Position numbers and translations under genes: made by a program. DNA of 13,341 bases from Octopus vulgaris (taxonomy: Eukaryota): the NCBI GenBank assembly GCA_951406725.2, contig CATOCA020000051.1:1-13341 (forward strand), in the 5' to 3' direction. The notes under the pieces are model-generated. The model ran no database searches. It was given only the letters and a program-made list of their open reading frames with translations, and was not told the DNA's origin. Shown here piece after piece: positions 1-13,341 of the stretch (its first letter is position 1; each line of letters starts with the position of its first letter).

Positions 1-10
1 TACATATACA

Positions 11-54
11 CAGTAATTTTCATTTTCGCCGAAACGCACATGGTGCAAAAATAA
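11..54 (+). promoter_or_regulatory. Candidate LINE internal Pol II promoter (Inr-like CAGT plus downstream GCACATGG element) and a 4-codon uORF (40-54)
   Basis: CAGT at 11-14 and ACGCACATGGTG ~25-30 nt downstream loosely resemble the Inr + downstream-element layout of invertebrate LINE promoters. ATG GTG CAA AAA TAA lies at 40-54 and is repeated at 417-431. Confidence 0.3.
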
Positions 55-770
55 CTGAATCAAGTTATCTCCTGCAAGAAAGAAAAAAGAAGCATCTCTC
101 CCGAAAAAAATCCCGTAAACCAAAAAAAAAAATTTTCCAGACCACATTGTTGGATTAAGTATCAATTTCATCTATTTCATATTTTATTTATTATTCTATT
201 TTATCTTTCACTTAGGCCCACATCTTAGTTAAAGTTGCGATCGTCATTTGGTTTGTTTACATTTTCAATAACTGTTCTCGATATAATAATTTTCCAGATA
301 CTCTATCTTCTAATTAGCCTTAAGATTAAATTAAATAACGTTTAATATTGATACCGTCAAATTAGCCTTAGGATTAAATTTAAATAACGTTTAATATAGT
401 TTTCGCCGAAACGCACATGGTGCAAAAATAACTGAATCAAGTTATCTCCTGCAAGAAAGAAAAAGAAGCATCTCTCCCGAAAAAAATCCCGTAAACCAAA
501 AAAATTATCCAGACCACATTGTTGGATTAAGTATCAATTTCATCTATTTCATATTTTATTTATTATTCTATTTTATCTTTCACTTAGGCCCACATCTTAG
601 TTAAAGTTGCGATCGTCATTTGGTTTGTTTACATTTTCAATAACTGTTCTCGATATAATAATTTTCCAGATACTCTATCTTCTAATTAGCCTTAAGATTA
701 AATTAAATAACGTTTAATATTGATACCGTCAAATTAGCCTTAGGATTAAATTAAATAACGTTTAATATAG
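23..770 (+). repeat. Tandem duplication of a ~375-bp unit (23-399 and 400-770)
   Basis: Both copies start TTTTCGCCGAAACGCACATGGTGC and end AACGTTTAATATAG. The differences I could find are in or next to A/T homopolymer runs (377 vs 371 bp). Confidence 0.95.
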
Positions 771-1700
771 TTTAATATTGTTAATAATTATTGTTAATTA
801 GCCTTAAGATTAAATTAAATAACGTTTAATATTGTTTTAATATTGTTAATAATTTTTCAGATACTCTATCTTCTAATTAGCCTTAAGATTAAATTAAATA
901 ACGTTTAATATTAATAACGTCTAATTAGCCTTAGGATTAAATTAAATAACGTTTAATATTGTTAATAATTATTGTTAATTAGCCTTAGGATTAAATTAAA
1001 TAACGTTTAATATTGTTAATAATTATTGTTAATTAGCCTTAGGATTAAATTAAATAACGTTTAATATTGTTTAATATTGTTAATAATTATTGTTAATTAG
1101 CCTTAAGATTAAATTAAATAACGTTTAATATTGTTTTAATATTGTTAATACTTCTTCAGATACTCTATCTTCTAATTAGCCTTAAGATTAAATTAAATAA
1201 CGTTTAATATTACCCACACTCTAATATAATATTAACATTGCTAATATATTTTCAGATACTCTATCTCCTGATTAGCCTTAAGATTAAATAACGTTTTTAT
1301 CCACACTCTAATATAATATTAATATTGCTAATATATTTTCAGATACTCTATCTTCTAATTAGCCTTAAGATTAAATTAAATAACGTTTAATATTAATAAC
1401 GTCTAATTAGCCTTAAGATTAAATTAAATAACGTTTAATATTACCCACACTCTAATATAATATTAATATTGCTAATATATTTTCAGATACTCTATCTCCA
1501 AATTAGCCTTAAGATTAAATAACGTTTTTTTTTACCCACACTCTAATATAATATTAATATTGCTAATATATTTTCAGATACTCTATCTCCTAATTAGCCT
1601 TAAGATTAAATAACGTTTTTACCCAAATAACGTTTTTACACAAACTTTAATATTGTTAATATTTCTTTTTCAAGTACTCTATCTTCTAATTAGCCTTAAT
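291..1700 (+). repeat. Complex AT-rich minisatellite with core TAATTAGCCTTA(A/G)GATTAAATTAAATAACGTTTAATATT, 17 copies; probably the LINE 5' UTR
   Basis: TTAGCCTTA occurs at about 314, 362, 686, 734, 798, 877, 925, 979, 1033, 1097, 1176, 1272, 1359, 1407, 1503, 1594 and 1690. Recurring spacings are 48, 54, 64, 79 and ~87-96 bp. The last copy is ~70 bp upstream of the ORF1 ATG. Confidence 0.92.
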
Positions 1701-1760
1701 ATCTTCCTGTCTTCTCTCGAACATAATTAGATAGATAAACGGATAGACGGATTATCCAGC

Positions 1761-2672
1761 ATGTCCAGAGCATGGAGACGTGACGAGCTGGATTTATTCG
1801 TACGAGCATGGGAGTGCGCCGGCGGAGATAGCCCTAGCGAGGTGATTGCGGCTGCGCTGAAGAGCAGAGGCTACAAGAGGACAGCGGCTCAGATGGAGCG
1901 AAAGAGACAGGAATTCGTGCGCTCATATGCGCTTGTACGGTCGCACATTGGCGCACTTGATGCCATCTTTGAGAACGAGCGGGGCAAAGATGGCAAGAAT
2001 GGAGACGATGAAAGAAGTCACCCCCACCTGGTGGACGCCCAGGAGGAGGTTTTGAATGAGAAACCTGCCCGGGAAGTGAACCCAGGTGCAAGTTCTCCAA
2101 CCGGCAGCAAGGGCCATGGAGACGGAGAACCCGGTGAAGAGGTAGAGGGAGGAAGAAGAACTAAAAGAAGGACTGGAAGAGCTAAAGGAAAAGAAAAAGC
2201 TCAAGCAGGACCAAAGAGTGAAACAACCAGGAGTAGAAGTGGAACCGCAAAGGATGGAACCAAACAGCGCACACGGGTGTGTATGTTCTACCTGAGAGGT
2301 TCCTGCTGGCACGGAAAGGAAGGTGCAGGCTGCCGCTTTGCACATCGGGGACCCTGCCACAGAGACACGAGGCAGATGGACAAACCATCAACACAAAGAA
2401 AAGGGATGGACTACGCACCACCTGCCCCAAAGCGGAGGTACGCAGATGTTGTGCGCGCCACAAACAGCCAACATGATGTTGTCGAAAGAGCAGCTGCTGA
2501 GCAACAATCTTTTTTGTGCATGGCACAAAAGATTGTACAGCAGCTGACCTGGCTTCATCAAACCCAAGCCCGCAGGTGGGACTACCCACTATATACCAGA
2601 CCACCACAGCAAACAGACACAGGATGGACACCGCCGGCAACAACGTACACCTCACCTCGATACTCCTACTGA
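1761..2672 (+). CDS. LINE ORF1 protein (303 aa): N-terminal Myb/SANT-like (trihelix-type) domain, charged linker, CCCH zinc finger, Pro/Thr/Gln-rich tail
   Basis: Intact ORF immediately upstream of and overlapping ORF2. Residues 5-56 read WRRDELDLFVRAW...IAAALKSRGYKRTAAQMERKRQEFVRSY. A C-x7-C-x8-C-x3-H motif (CMFYLRGSCWHGKEGAGCRFAH) is at nt 2280-2345. There are basic NLS-like tracts (RRTKRR, PKRR) and a YADVV motif. Confidence 0.85.
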   Translation: MSRAWRRDELDLFVRAWECAGGDSPSEVIAAALKSRGYKRTAAQMERKRQEFVRSYALVRSHIGALDAIFENERGKDGKNGDDERSHPHLVDAQEEVLNEKPAREVNPGASSPTGSKGHGDGEPGEEVEGGRRTKRRTGRAKGKEKAQAGPKSETTRSRSGTAKDGTKQRTRVCMFYLRGSCWHGKEGAGCRFAHRGPCHRDTRQMDKPSTQRKGMDYAPPAPKRRYADVVRATNSQHDVVERAAAEQQSFLCMAQKIVQQLTWLHQTQARRWDYPLYTRPPQQTDTGWTPPATTYTSPRYSY

Positions 2673-3403
2673 ACATCAGAGGACTGCAAACACTCAGTAA
2701 CAGGACAAAGATCCCGTTCCTGAGAGACTTTGTTGCATGCAATCAAGCCTTATGCATAGCACTTACAGAAACGCACCTGAAACCGGACATAGCAGATGCG
2801 GAGTTACACATACCACAGTATGCTGTACTACGGACCGACAGGAAAGAAAGGAGTCATGGAGGTGTTGCTATGTACATCCGTGAGGACCTCACACCCCAGG
2901 TCCTCTTGTCATACTCAAACTCGGTGTGTGACACACTAATTGTACATATTAGGCAACTTGATGTAGTTGTGTGTGCTACATATCGCCCTCCAGATGCCCC
3001 AAGCCATGTGGGCAAGTTTGAAGACTGCCTTATAAAAATAGAAGAAATTCTAACCACATTAGAACAACACATAGGTGTGCTTCTTATGGGAGACTTCAAT
3101 CTGCCCAATGTCAGATGGCCCGAGGGCCTTTCTCTCCCAGGAATGACAAGATGTGAACGAGGACAGGCGAGGTCCCTCCTGAACCTCATCAACACCCTGT
3201 ACATGGAGCAGGTAATACTCCAACCAACCAGGGCAGGTAACACACTGGATCTCTGCTTCACAAATGACATGGATCTCATCCATAATGTGAAAGTGACACC
3301 GACACTACTCTCGGATCACAACATGATAGAGCTGACCATGTACGGGCCAAAAGAGAGCACGGACATGCAGCCTACAAGAAACCTCAAAATCTTTCCAGCT
3401 TGA
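2624..3403 (+). CDS. ORF2 N-terminal fragment: apurinic/apyrimidinic-like (APE/EEP) endonuclease domain
   Basis: Motifs LLNIRGL, LTETHL, DRKERSHGGVAMYI, YRPP, GDFNLP, PTRAGNTLDL and SDH are all present in the expected order. The frame is open from 2501. Confidence 0.92.
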   Translation: MDTAGNNVHLTSILLLNIRGLQTLSNRTKIPFLRDFVACNQALCIALTETHLKPDIADAELHIPQYAVLRTDRKERSHGGVAMYIREDLTPQVLLSYSNSVCDTLIVHIRQLDVVVCATYRPPDAPSHVGKFEDCLIKIEEILTTLEQHIGVLLMGDFNLPNVRWPEGLSLPGMTRCERGQARSLLNLINTLYMEQVILQPTRAGNTLDLCFTNDMDLIHNVKVTPTLLSDHNMIELTMYGPKESTDMQPTRNLKIFPA

Positions 3404-5364
3404 ACTACCATAAGGCAAACTGGAAACAAATTGAGAAAGAGATCCTCAAACAAAACTGGCCTAAATGTCTCTCCTCGCCAGACATCGACGTGAAACTTCA
3501 ACAATTCATGTCTGTAATGCAAGCCATATGCTACAAATGTGTCCCAGAGAGAAAGGCCACTGTACACAAGAACAAAATCCCCAGAGAGAGGAAAATTTTA
3601 ATGAGACGGCGTACGAAATTTTCAAATCGCCTAAACAAACAGATTGAAAGCAGTGAAAAGTCCCGCCTAAAAATAAAACTGTTGGAAATCGAAAAATGTC
3701 TGCAACTCTCCCATGAAAAAGAAAGAGCAGACAAAGAAGCCTGGGCTATAGAAAACATAAAATCTAACCCCAGAGCTTTCTACAGGTATGCCAAAGAAAC
3801 AGCTACAGTGCACTGTAGAATAGGGCCACTCCTTGAAAAGGATGGCACACTTACAGGAAAACCAATGAGGGTAAGTGAAATACTGAATGAGCAATTCAAG
3901 AGTGTTTTCACTCCACCCCTTGGGCATCTCCAAATCACCAATCCAACTGACTTTTTTACCACTGCAGATATAAAATCAGAGGCGGCGACGATAGATTACA
4001 TCGATATAAAGGAAGACGATGTAACCAAGGCTATAGATGAAATGAAAACAGACTCAGCTACTGGCCCCGATGGATTCCCGGCAATCCTCCTAAAAGCATG
4101 TAAGAGAGTCCTAGCAAGACCACTGCAGTTCCTCTTTCAGAGCTTCCTTGCAGCTGGCAAACTTCCAGGAAAACTGAAGGAAGGTAAAATATGCCCCATT
4201 CATAAAGGAGGTAGCAGAGCGGAAGCCAAGAACTATAGACCTATCTCTCTGACCTCACACATCAGCAAGGTCATGGAACGAATAGTCAGAAGGAAGCTGA
4301 TCACCTTCCTTGAAGAGAATGACTTGCTGCCCGACACCCAACATGGTTTCCGACCAGGGAGAAGCTGTTTAACTCAGCTCCTACAACACTATGACTGGGT
4401 GCTGAAACGGCTGCTCAACCACTCAAATGTGGAAGTGATATATCTCGACTTTGCAAAGGCCTTTGATAAAGTCGATCATGGAATGATATGTCACAAACTG
4501 CGTGATCTCAACATAGTTGGAAAACTGGGAGAATGGCTTCATGACTTTCTGAAGGATAGAAGTCAGGTGGTAGTAGCCAATGGGGCCACCTCCATTAACA
4601 CACAAATAGTGAGCGGTGTTCCGCAGGGCACTGTTCTGGGACCACTACTGTTCATAATGGCCCTCTCAGACATGCCCTCAGCCACGCAGAGAGCCACGAT
4701 CACAAGTTATGCAGATGATACAAAAGTCTCACAGGCAATACAGAACCCTGAGGACACTAAACACCTGCAATGTGAGCTGGACGAAATATACAAGTGGGCT
4801 GAAAAGAATAGCATGCAGTTCAATGCTGGAAAGTTTCAAGCTTTATACTATCAGCATGCAAAACTGAATGCAATACCCAATGAATACACTGGACCCGGAG
4901 GGATTGCAATCCCAGAGGCACAATCAGTGCGTGACCTGGGTATTCACATGAGTGATGACGCGACCTTTCATGTACATGTTGCTAAACTGACAATGAAATG
5001 TAGACGGCTGGCTGGATGGATTCTTAGAACCTTTAGAACAAGAGAACAAGAAACCATGATGGTCCTCTGGAAGACACTTGTCCTAAGCCACTTTGACTAT
5101 TGCTCTCAGCTATGGTCACCATCCAGTGTCAAGTTGATCACAGAACTTGAGGCGATCCAACGAAGCTACACAAAGAAGATAGCCTCTATGCAGAATGTAA
5201 GCTACTGGGAAAGACTCAAGAGATTAAAATTATATTCCCTGGAGCGTAGGCGGGAAAGATATGCCATAATATACATCTGGAAGATCCTGGAGGGAAGTGT
5301 CCTGAACTTTGGCATCGAGAGTTACGCAAATGCCAGAACTGGGCGGCCACTGCGTGGTGCCTAG
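3382..5364 (+). CDS. ORF2 central fragment: non-LTR reverse transcriptase
   Basis: Motifs NYHKANW, TGPDG, NYRPISLTS, QHGFRPGRSC, YLDFAKAFDKVDH, SGVPQGTVLGPLLF, YADD (nt 4708-4719) and RDLGI. The annotated start at 3400 is TTG, so this is not an independent gene. Confidence 0.95.
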   Translation, partial: PQNLSSLNYHKANWKQIEKEILKQNWPKCLSSPDIDVKLQQFMSVMQAICYKCVPERKATVHKNKIPRERKILMRRRTKFSNRLNKQIESSEKSRLKIKLLEIEKCLQLSHEKERADKEAWAIENIKSNPRAFYRYAKETATVHCRIGPLLEKDGTLTGKPMRVSEILNEQFKSVFTPPLGHLQITNPTDFFTTADIKSEAATIDYIDIKEDDVTKAIDEMKTDSATGPDGFPAILLKACKRVLARPLQFLFQSFLAAGKLPGKLKEGKICPIHKGGSRAEAKNYRPISLTSHISKVMERIVRRKLITFLEENDLLPDTQHGFRPGRSCLTQLLQHYDWVLKRLLNHSNVEVIYLDFAKAFDKVDHGMICHKLRDLNIVGKLGEWLHDFLKDRSQVVVANGATSINTQIVSGVPQGTVLGPLLFIMALSDMPSATQRATITSYADDTKVSQAIQNPEDTKHLQCELDEIYKWAEKNSMQFNAGKFQALYYQHAKLNAIPNEYTGPGGIAIPEAQSVRDLGIHMSDDATFHVHVAKLTMKCRRLAGWILRTFRTREQETMMVLWKTLVLSHFDYCSQLWSPSSVKLITELEAIQRSYTKKIASMQNVSYWERLKRLKLYSLERRRERYAIIYIWKILEGSVLNFGIESYANARTGRPLRGA

Positions 5365-5620
5365 GACTCCAAACCTGCCATCAAGATGTAGGACAAGATT
5401 CTGTGATAGCCTGGGCTTCCGAGGCCCACAGCTCTTCAATATCCTCCCGAAGAACCTGAGAGACCTGCATGGGGTGGATACAGATGTCTTTAAAATGAAG
5501 CTGGATCTCTTCCTGTCAGGTGTCCCAGATGAACCAACTTCACGGCAGGAGGGGCAGATGAGGGCAGCTGCATCGAACTCTCTCATGCACCAAATAGCAG
5601 TTGCTAGAAAGCCTCCATGA
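5348..5620 (+). CDS. ORF2 C-terminal fragment after the +1 frameshift
   Basis: HCVVP...[16 protein letters not shown]...[16 protein letters not shown]...SNSL matches the 'FNxLP...FKxxLD' end of CR1-group ORF2. The TGA stop is at 5618-5620. Confidence 0.8.
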
Positions 5621-5645
5621 AGTGAAACCAAGTAGCAACACCAAA

Positions 5646-5681
5646 TGGCGGTGCCCCAGCATGGCCACAGCTCATAAGCTG
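5646..5681 (+). other. LINE 3' UTR twin stem-loops (putative ORF2 recognition signal)
   Basis: TGGC-G-GTGC-ccca-GCAT-G-GCCA (5646-5667) and CAGCT-cata-AGCTG (5668-5681) lie directly before GAAACTAG and the tail. Confidence 0.65.
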
Positions 5682-5688
5682 AAACTAG

Positions 5689-5712
5689 AATCAATCAATC
5701 AATCAATCAATC
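5689..5712 (+). repeat. (AATC)6 LINE 3' terminal microsatellite tail
   Basis: Six perfect AATC units lie between the 3' UTR and the TA array. Confidence 0.95.
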
Positions 5713-12511
<6,799 letters not shown>

Positions 12512-12702
12512 GACTACAAAATTAGAGAATGGAGAAACATACTTAAATCAGTAAAACATCAACTATCCGATGATACTCAATCCATACTTTAATACACCAT
12601 TACATATGAGTAAAGGCAATATATAAAATGAAATGAGATATACAGTAATAGTAAAAGTAAAAAGATAAAGAGATATAAGTAAAAAATTTCAAATATAATA
12701 TG

Positions 12703-12840
12703 CAAATAAATCAAAACTGACAGCTGTTTCGGCAGTGAGGACAGTCATACCTCATTTAACCTATAAGCCATAAAGGCAGGTATAAATGAGGCATTAACAA
12801 GGATGCCCCACGGCCTCTTCAGAGAATTAAATTAAATTTG
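12703..12840 (-). ncRNA. Type I hammerhead ribozyme (Penelope/retrozyme-like) with extended stem II
   Basis: The minus strand reads ...AAUUCU-CUGAAGA(12822-12816)-GGC...GCC(stem II, 12815-12731)-GAAA(12730-12727)-C-AGCU-GUC^AG.... All conserved core nucleotides are present, including the G10.1-C11.1 and A15.1-U16.1 pairs. Predicted cleavage is between 12719 and 12718. Stem I is imperfect. Confidence 0.8.
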
Positions 12841-13172
12841 TTATAATAGTGAAAAATATATAATCATATACATATAAATATAAAAATATAAAAATGTAAA
12901 ATATAAAAACTTATACATCATAATGCTACACTTATATAATATAATACACATTTGTACAAAAAGGAAGGTAAACAGAACAAAATAAAACAAAATATATAAC
13001 AGTGTATATATTAATATTAATAAGTACCGATATTATACATATTTGGCTAATAGTTTTTTTTTTATAAAAAAAAAAAAAAAAAGGGCTAACACATATGGAG
13101 ATGAAAAATAATAATTAAATCCGTGGTACAGTTCATAAAATTCTAAAGCTATAAAAGTTAATAAAAATTACT

Positions 13173-13174
<2 letters not shown>

Positions 13175-13219
<45 letters not shown>

Positions 13220-13231
13220 TAATAATAATAA
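13175..13231. repeat. (TAA)n microsatellite
   Basis: (TAA)14 at 13175-13216, then AAA, then (TAA)4. Confidence 0.95.
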
Positions 13232-13341
13232 AAAATACTAAAAATAGATACAGTTAAGTTAGCACCAAGTCCATCCTTTCAAGATCGAAATAACTATGAG
13301 TTAAGAAATGCTGACCACTAGGTAAAGAAAATTTAGATTAA

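What the first reader, a model, noticed from the sequence alone, without database searches (positions are those of the whole stretch)
1767..1928. LINE ORF1 carries a Myb/SANT-like (trihelix/Harbinger-type) DNA-binding domain
Seen: W-x3-E-x3-F-x3-W...IAAAL..RGY.RT..Q...K......Y. Established: this matches my recollection of the Myb/SANT-like family (Pfam Myb_DNA-bind_4) found in trihelix factors, MSANTD proteins and PIF/Harbinger accessory proteins. CR1-group ORF1s more typically carry PHD, RRM, esterase or zinc-knuckle modules. Inference: this may be a captured DNA-binding module giving a rarely described ORF1 architecture (Myb-like + CCCH). It could bind AT-rich target DNA or the element's own repeated leader.
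Basis: partly seen in the sequence, partly recalled or inferred. Interest (0 to 1): 0.7.

Follow-up and report, generated by a model that had tools for sequence, protein, structure and literature searches.

The report
Octopus-type LINE ORF1 with Myb-like domain
A jumping gene related to elements in octopus genomes carries, at the front of its RNA-packaging protein, a small Myb-like nucleic-acid-binding domain where a related protein has a histone-reading finger, an arrangement that may help the element grip DNA and choose where it lands.

Summary
ORF1 (1761-2672, 303 aa) of a two-ORF, CR1-like LINE begins with a Myb/SANT-like three-helix domain (aa 1-75). It matches Pfam Myb_DNA-bind_4 weakly (E 5e-4, below the cut-off). 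So do 9 of 20 aligned family members, and no other family recurs. The AlphaFold model (pLDDT 90) resembles Myb/SANT/GT-1 folds, but only at Z 6-8. Five relatives share the layout Myb-like / linker / one CCCH finger, four of them with the C-terminal helix too; all named close relatives are from Octopus. A distant protein with the same CCCH finger has a PHD in that slot, and a similar triple-CCCH array is joined to a ctenophore LINE ORF2. This points to a swap between PHD and Myb-like modules. Helix 3 is basic in 19 of 20 members, but two Trp positions recalled as canonical are replaced. I found no description of a Myb-like or CCCH ORF1 in ten literature searches; Repbase and Dfam were not available. 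Binding to (TA)n or to the leader repeat, and capture from Harbinger, are untested. Verdict: new ORF1 variant of a known LINE kind, interest 0.5.

The parts
11..1760 (+). AT-rich repeated leader, probably the 5' UTR: two ~372-377 bp units (23-773) and an array of 16-17 monomers with a shared core (312-1700). That it belongs to the element is inferred; no second copy was available.
   Evidence: only two upstream ATGs on the + strand, at 40 and 417
1761..2672 (+). ORF1, 303 aa, open
1761..1985 (+).
1986..2276 (+). poorly conserved linker: acidic half (aa 76-130, net -8), then basic half (aa 131-172, net +13)
2280..2345 (+). single CCCH zinc finger, C-x7-C-x8-C-x3-H (aa 174-195)
2475..2564 (+). 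conserved C-terminal segment, amphipathic helix by its hydrophobic pattern (aa 239-268)
2501..5620 (+). ORF2 (APE endonuclease + RT). Frame open from 2501, first ATG 2624, overlapping the end of ORF1. Broken in this copy by frame changes near 3376-3382 and 5342-5346.
5621..5713 (+). short 3' UTR with two hairpins, then (AATC)6 tail
5713..12511 (.). 6.8 kb (TA)n array with G interruptions on the + strand, abutting the 3' tail
8224..8307 (+). 84-bp island inside the TA array resembling the element's 3' end (5632-5688): probable 5'-truncated related LINE or SINE tail

Best explanation
This is the ORF1 protein of a CR1-like LINE lineage whose named close relatives are from Octopus. It is modular: Myb/SANT-like helix-turn-helix domain, flexible linker, one CCCH finger beside a basic patch, and a conserved C-terminal helix. 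Shown by computation: the fold, the family-wide layout, and a basic helix 3. Inferred: the CCCH finger and basic linker coat the element's RNA, the usual ORF1p job. The Myb-like domain puts helix 3 onto double-stranded DNA with low to moderate specificity and so tethers the ribonucleoprotein to chromatin before the ORF2 endonuclease nicks. Also inferred: it occupies the slot that a PHD histone reader fills in a related CCCH-type protein, so the lineage exchanged one chromatin-docking module for another. I put domain identity at about 0.85 and the tethering role at about 0.5.
For: Domain; Atlas leads all Myb/MADF-type at 0.78-0.83, lead level only. Conserved under selection: identity to P0003/P0004/P0005 is 36/73, 23/73, 22/67 in the domain against 21/89, 9/75, 11/70 in the linker. 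Helix 3 (aa 39-61) is net positive in 19 of 20 members, mean +3.85; R40 is R/K in 20 of 20 and K48 is K in 19 of 20. Swap: P0033 has a PHD-like finger at aa 14-62 (E 0.0035, below cut-off), then three CCCH fingers; the first is 13/25 identical to the window's finger. P0081 joins a like triple-CCCH array (E 4e-17 to P0033) to a LINE ORF2 nearly identical to a Mnemiopsis leidyi protein. Metcalfe and Casane propose PHD in ORF1 for general genome targeting (PMC4120745). R2 elements use a Myb domain on target DNA (PMC12503042).
Against: All Pfam scores are below the gathering cut-off. Foldseek gave no match at E<=0.001, and Z 6-8 can reflect a common helical arrangement. Two Trp positions recalled as canonical for this family are N (13/20) and K/R (19/20), and two conserved acidic residues (E46, E51) sit in helix 3. 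P0033 has no genomic context, so it is an ORF1 only by inference; P0027 and P0081 show no PHD. Homology of the C-terminal helix between the two ORF1 types was not shown (4/500 and 161/500 shuffles score as well). The direction of the swap is unrooted. No binding data.
Confidence: 0.5

Rival explanations
1. Sequence-specific targeting: the domain reads (TA)n or AT-rich microsatellites and directs insertion there, as the R2 Myb domain reads rDNA.
For: The element's 3' tail abuts a 6.8 kb TA array. A second, related 3' end lies inside the same array in the same orientation (score reached by 2 of 1000 shuffles). R2 precedent (PMC12503042).
Against: Only two events in one window. No target-site duplication is visible, and the 10 nt 5' flank reads TACA whereas the array has 428 TATG to 1 TACA. 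TA arrays are very common in octopus genomes (recalled). In APE-type elements target choice is usually set by the endonuclease (recalled).
Confidence: 0.15
2. Autoregulation: ORF1p binds the 16-17 monomers of its own leader DNA and acts as a repressor or activator, as Harbinger Myb/SANT proteins bind their own transposon.
For: The leader holds 16 near-perfect copies of an 18-nt core. Harbinger Myb/SANT proteins are described as acting on their own transposon DNA (PMC11893794).
Against: Membership of the leader in the element is inferred. Recalled c-Myb and GT-1 site motifs are not in the monomer array: 4 c-Myb-type hits, all at or before 641, and 0 GT-1-type hits. Relatives' leaders could not be examined.
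Confidence: 0.12
3. The domain is Myb-derived but repurposed for RNA or protein contacts inside the ribonucleoprotein (RNA chaperoning, oligomerisation, or recruiting a chromatin enzyme as SANT domains do).
For: Loss of two recalled core Trp and acidic residues in helix 3. Top fold hits include the SANT domain of DNAJC2. SANT domains serve as histone or enzyme interaction modules (PMC11893794). This ORF1 has no RRM and only one CCCH finger, so it may need a further RNA-binding surface.
Against: Helix 3 is basic in 19 of 20 members, which fits nucleic acid better than histone tails, although it does not separate RNA from DNA.
Confidence: 0.17
4. Not a Myb homologue: a generic three-helix bundle that resembles the family by convergence.
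For: Sub-threshold Pfam scores; no Foldseek match at E<=0.001; no Myb chain recovered from the PDB by sequence or profile; TEA and homeodomain folds tie with Myb.
Against: One Pfam family recurs in 9 of 20 members across helices 1-3, and the ranked fold lists are dominated by Myb/SANT-type domains.
Confidence: 0.06

Closest known systems
CR1/L2-lineage ORF1 types I-V (Metcalfe and Casane 2014, PMC4120745)
   Same: Two-ORF APE+RT element; modular ORF1 with an N-terminal chromatin-type module; domain shuffling is documented in these lineages.
   Different: Their table lists PHD, RRM, CCHC, transposase-22, esterase, zf/lz and coiled coil only. Myb, SANT and CCCH do not occur in the main text. No cephalopod element is in their list. 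This ORF1 would fall in unclassified type V.
PHD + triple-CCCH proteins (P0033, P0027; P0081 joined to a Mnemiopsis-like ORF2)
   Same: Same CCCH finger pattern (13-14 of 25 identical for P0033 and P0027), similar length and order of modules; the ORF2 of P0081 is a distant endonuclease relative (36%).
   Different: PHD-like finger (P0033) or no recognised N-terminal domain instead of the Myb-like domain; three fingers instead of one.
Myb/SANT-like domain PF13837 (trihelix GT-1, MSANTD, PIF/Harbinger accessory proteins, MADF relatives)
   Same: Three-helix fold, helix-1 W-x3-E motif, G-[FY]-x-R-[TS]-x2-Q motif before helix 3, long basic helix 3 ending in Tyr.
   Different: Below the Pfam cut-off; short loop between helices 1 and 2; helix-2 and helix-3 Trp (recalled positions) replaced; sits in a retrotransposon ORF1.
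R2 retrotransposon N-terminal zinc finger + Myb module
   Same: A Myb-fold domain in a non-LTR element, used there for target DNA binding (PMC12503042).
   Different: R2 has a single ORF with a restriction-like endonuclease and is site-specific for rDNA; here the domain is on a separate ORF1p of an APE element. No R2 chain appeared in the listed fold rows.

Membership tests
Myb/SANT-like domain PF13837 | Pfam score at or above the gathering cut-off (27 bits) | tested here: not met
   20.8 bits, E 5.1e-4; best family member E 1.1e-4
Myb/SANT-like domain PF13837 | Three-helix Myb/homeodomain-like fold with long helix 3 | tested here: met
   AlphaFold pLDDT 89.8, H7-20, H25-35, H42-60; RAD MYB Z 7.2, rmsd 2.5, 58 aligned; GT-1 Z 6.6, rmsd 5.4, 71 aligned; Zeste Z 5.9, rmsd 2.1, 57 aligned. 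These Z values are middling.
Myb/SANT-like domain PF13837 | Core Trp in each of the three helices (positions recalled, not from a call) | tested here: not met
   W5 kept in 13 of 15; position 26 is N in 13 of 20; position 49 is K/R in 19 of 20; W17 (15 of 18) may compensate
Myb/SANT-like domain PF13837 | Sequence-specific dsDNA binding through helix 3 | not testable with these tools
   Helix 3 is basic in 19 of 20; no binding assay possible
PIF/Harbinger accessory protein origin | Domain groups with Harbinger Myb/SANT proteins rather than host factors | tested here: inconclusive
   The family profile found only 3 family members among 7999 scored candidates of 161-2000 aa, and no Harbinger or host protein; that search is weak by its own note
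CR1-group LINE | ORF2 with APE endonuclease and RT | tested here: met
   Exo_endo_phos_2 E 1e-12; RVT_1 E 1.2e-30
CR1-group LINE | No C-terminal CCHC knuckle; 3' tail of short tandem repeats rather than poly(A) (criteria recalled) | tested here: met
   No CCHC pattern in 3 of 3 close ORF2 relatives checked; (AATC)6 tail
CR1-group LINE | RT tree placement within the CR1 clade against labelled references | not testable with these tools
   No labelled reference RTs were available. The endonuclease tree (41 rows: the window and 40 of 120 hits) shows only a 5-row octopus-like clade at 100/99. CR1 is the class left by elimination among recently active O. vulgaris LINEs (PMC13282606).
CCCH zinc finger PF00642 | C-x(7-8)-C-x(5)-C-x3-H at Pfam cut-off | tested here: inconclusive
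   Four ligands present with spacing x7-x8-x3; 16.8 bits against cut-off 20.5; kept in P0002-P0005, P0013, P0016

The most novel reading that the evidence does not exclude
An APE-type LINE whose ORF1p is a sequence-specific DNA-binding protein, gained by swapping a PHD histone reader for a transposon- or transcription-factor-derived Myb/SANT domain. It would steer insertion into (TA)n arrays and/or regulate the element's own repeated leader, giving ORF1p a role in target choice that is usually credited to ORF2.
Probability: 0.22. Interest if true: 0.8.

Novelty: new variant of a known kind. Interest (0 to 1): 0.5.

Why it matters
The role of ORF1p beyond RNA chaperoning is open (PMC12503042), and the idea that PHD-bearing ORF1s dock the complex on chromatin is an untested proposal (PMC4120745). 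A natural exchange of PHD for a small Myb-fold domain on a CCCH-type ORF1 gives a clean test: a 75-residue domain for EMSA/SELEX, and a young, abundant LINE class in octopus (13 CR1 families with 787 recent insertions in O. vulgaris, PMC13282606) whose flanks can be scored. It would add an ORF1 type, add CCCH fingers to the ORF1 repertoire, and, if targeting is shown, help explain how these elements settle in microsatellite-rich cephalopod genomes.

Tried and rejected
PDB by sequence: 0 hits for aa 1-75. The family profile gave no Myb chain; its best hit was a partial match to ribosomal S8 at E 0.026, taken as chance. Foldseek gave nothing at E<=0.001 for either model; no R2 or Harbinger chain was among the listed rows, which does not exclude them. 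The profile search among longer proteins found only family members. The scan of bacterial and archaeal genome contigs with the RT region found no relative (115 pattern matches, none confirmed). Rfam found nothing in 1-5750. The sigma-70 scan of 1-400 is not relevant to an animal element and was at chance level. A trimer prediction for the C-terminal helix (aa 234-274) returned no answer, score 0.03. A C-helix profile against PHD-type proteins was not convincingly above shuffles. The LisH match (aa 28-47) occurs in 1 of 20 members and was rejected. The idea of a recent Harbinger fragment inserted in this one copy was rejected: the domain is in frame and shared by 20 of 33 relatives. Multi-CCCH proteins P0012, P0023 and P0031 were treated as unrelated finger matches. 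P0024 and P0026 were left out of alignment A4 as degraded or partial. No inverted repeat was found in the 3' flank with exact 11-mers.

Full report
Anatomy. The window holds one near full-length LINE on the + strand. It has an AT-rich repeated leader (11-1760), ORF1 (1761-2672, 303 aa) and an overlapping ORF2 with APE endonuclease (E 1e-12) and RT (E 1.2e-30). A short 3' UTR and an (AATC)6 tail follow, then a 6.8 kb (TA)n array. ORF1 is open. ORF2 changes frame near 3376-3382 and 5342-5346 relative to an intact relative that is 81-89% identical (P0035); these may be mutations or sequencing errors.

The observation. A search of 1.84 billion representatives gave 33 relatives at E<=0.001. A profile of the domain scores 20 of these 33 above 70 bits (19 are in the profile by construction), 2 more partially, and none of 120 ORF2 proteins. 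In the 20-row alignment A4, 9 members match Myb_DNA-bind_4 at E<=1 (best 1.1e-4) and no other family occurs twice. The members are related, so these are not nine independent tests. AlphaFold gave helices 7-19, 26-35, 42-78 from the single sequence (best model pLDDT 82.5, others 59-68) and 7-20, 25-35, 42-60, 63-75 with the alignment (all five models 87.9-89.8). Foldseek found nothing at E<=0.001. For the second it ranked DNAJC2 SANT (Z 7.3, rmsd 5.2, 68 aligned), TEAD4 (7.2, 6.9, 73), RAD MYB (7.2, 2.5, 58), LUX, ARR1 and GT-1 (6.6, 5.4, 71) as ties. The tool warns that such Z values can reflect a common arrangement. The Atlas gave Myb/MADF-type clusters at 0.78-0.83, lead level only. Together these support a divergent Myb/SANT-like domain, nearest PF13837 but failing its cut-off.

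The family. Five relatives span the Myb-like domain and the finger region: P0003, P0004, P0005 and P0013 with an intact CCCH finger, P0007 with two ligands lost. The other domain-bearing hits are fragments of 69-166 aa, as expected for decayed copies. Conservation is modular. For P0003/P0004/P0005 the identities are: domain 36/73, 23/73, 22/67; linker 21/89, 9/75, 11/70; finger 14/25, 12/25, 15/25; C-terminal helix 22/30, 15/30, 16/30. The only named ORF1 relatives are Octopus vulgaris proteins (P0002; P0013). The nearest named ORF2 is from O. sinensis (62%); after four hits at 62-86% the identity drops to about 42%. The window's endonuclease forms a 5-row clade with these (100/99; 40 of 120 hits used). 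An octopod host is therefore likely but inferred. The CR1 label rests on architecture and elimination, not on a labelled tree.

Residues. Helix 3 (aa 39-61) is net positive in 19 of 20 members (mean +3.85). R40, Q44, K48 and Y56 are nearly invariant. Against a canonical Myb reading, the positions I recall as helix-2 and helix-3 Trp are N (13/20) and K/R (19/20), and E46 and E51 are conserved. That mapping is from memory.

A probable module swap. P0033 (329 aa, unnamed) has a PHD-like finger at aa 14-62 (E 0.0035), a linker and three CCCH fingers; its first finger is 13/25 identical to the window's. P0081 carries a similar triple-CCCH array (E 4e-17 to P0033) joined to a LINE ORF2 that is nearly identical to a Mnemiopsis leidyi protein (525/572 with one gap) and is a distant relative of this endonuclease (36%). 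So CCCH-type ORF1s appear to go with this broad ORF2 group, and the N-terminal slot holds either a PHD or the Myb-like domain. Limits: P0033 has no genomic context, P0027 and P0081 show no PHD, C-helix homology was not shown, and the direction is unrooted.

Mechanism. Most likely the CCCH finger and basic linker (net +13) bind the element's RNA, and the Myb-like domain docks the particle on DNA or chromatin, the role proposed for PHD in ORF1 (PMC4120745). All functional steps are inferred. For (TA)n targeting the window offers two hints. The tail abuts the array. An 84-bp island (8224-8307) resembles the last 57 nt of the element (2 of 1000 shuffles score as well) and can form the same terminal hairpin with one U-A to C-G pair change, seen when 8250-8307 is folded alone (two sequences only). 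Against it, no target-site duplication is visible and the 5' flank has the opposite repeat polarity. For autoregulation, the leader has 16-17 monomers, but nothing links them to the domain.

Literature. Ten searches listed no paper describing a Myb/SANT or CCCH domain in the ORF1 of an APE-type LINE; most results were seen as listings and abstract openings only. Read more closely: PMC4120745 (parts 1-3 of 6, term search, supplement 1 whole) and PMC13282606 (part 1 of 3 and passages). Passages only: PMC13343379, PMC5203782, PMC11203168 (supplement motif search 71), PMC4758252, PMC12503042, PMC3708506, PMC10294476, PMC11893794, PMC9115989, PMC10027918. 'Myb' had 0 occurrences in the ORF1 or octopus repeat papers searched. 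Khazina and Weichenrieder 2009 is cited only through PMC4120745. Repbase, Dfam, subscription papers, bioRxiv supplements and the curated O. vulgaris library were not seen and could already note this architecture.

Verdict. The feature is real. It is a new ORF1 variant of a known LINE kind. Its function is untested. Interest 0.5.

Noticed in passing
window 8224-8307 (+): 84-bp island in the TA array resembling the LINE's 3' end, with a possible shared terminal hairpin: a 5'-truncated related LINE or a SINE tail that could use this element's RT.
   Followed up: partly
window 23-1700: Leader built of two ~372-377 bp units plus 16-17 copies of an AT-rich monomer, reminiscent of monomer-array LINE promoters; only two upstream ATGs.
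   Followed up: partly
window 2501-2672: The ORF2 frame is open across the last ~57 codons of ORF1; relative P0035 aligns in this overlap from 2516, so the overlap looks conserved.
   Followed up: partly
window 5713-12511: The TA array is strand-asymmetric (464 G against 26 C on +; 428 TATG against 1 TACA), whereas the 10 nt at the window's 5' end read TACA.
   Followed up: partly
protein P0011: A lipin N-terminal domain protein ends in a stretch 62% identical to ORF1 aa 71-138: probably a gene model that has spliced in a fragment of this LINE.
   Followed up: no
proteins P0027, P0033, P0081: Triple-CCCH proteins that look like an undescribed ORF1 type of marine-invertebrate LINEs; the Atlas has unnamed clusters of 79 and 68 members like P0033.
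   Followed up: partly
window 12512-13341: Unique AT-rich flank with a (TAA)n run at 13159-13246; no ORF of 80 aa within it.
   Followed up: no
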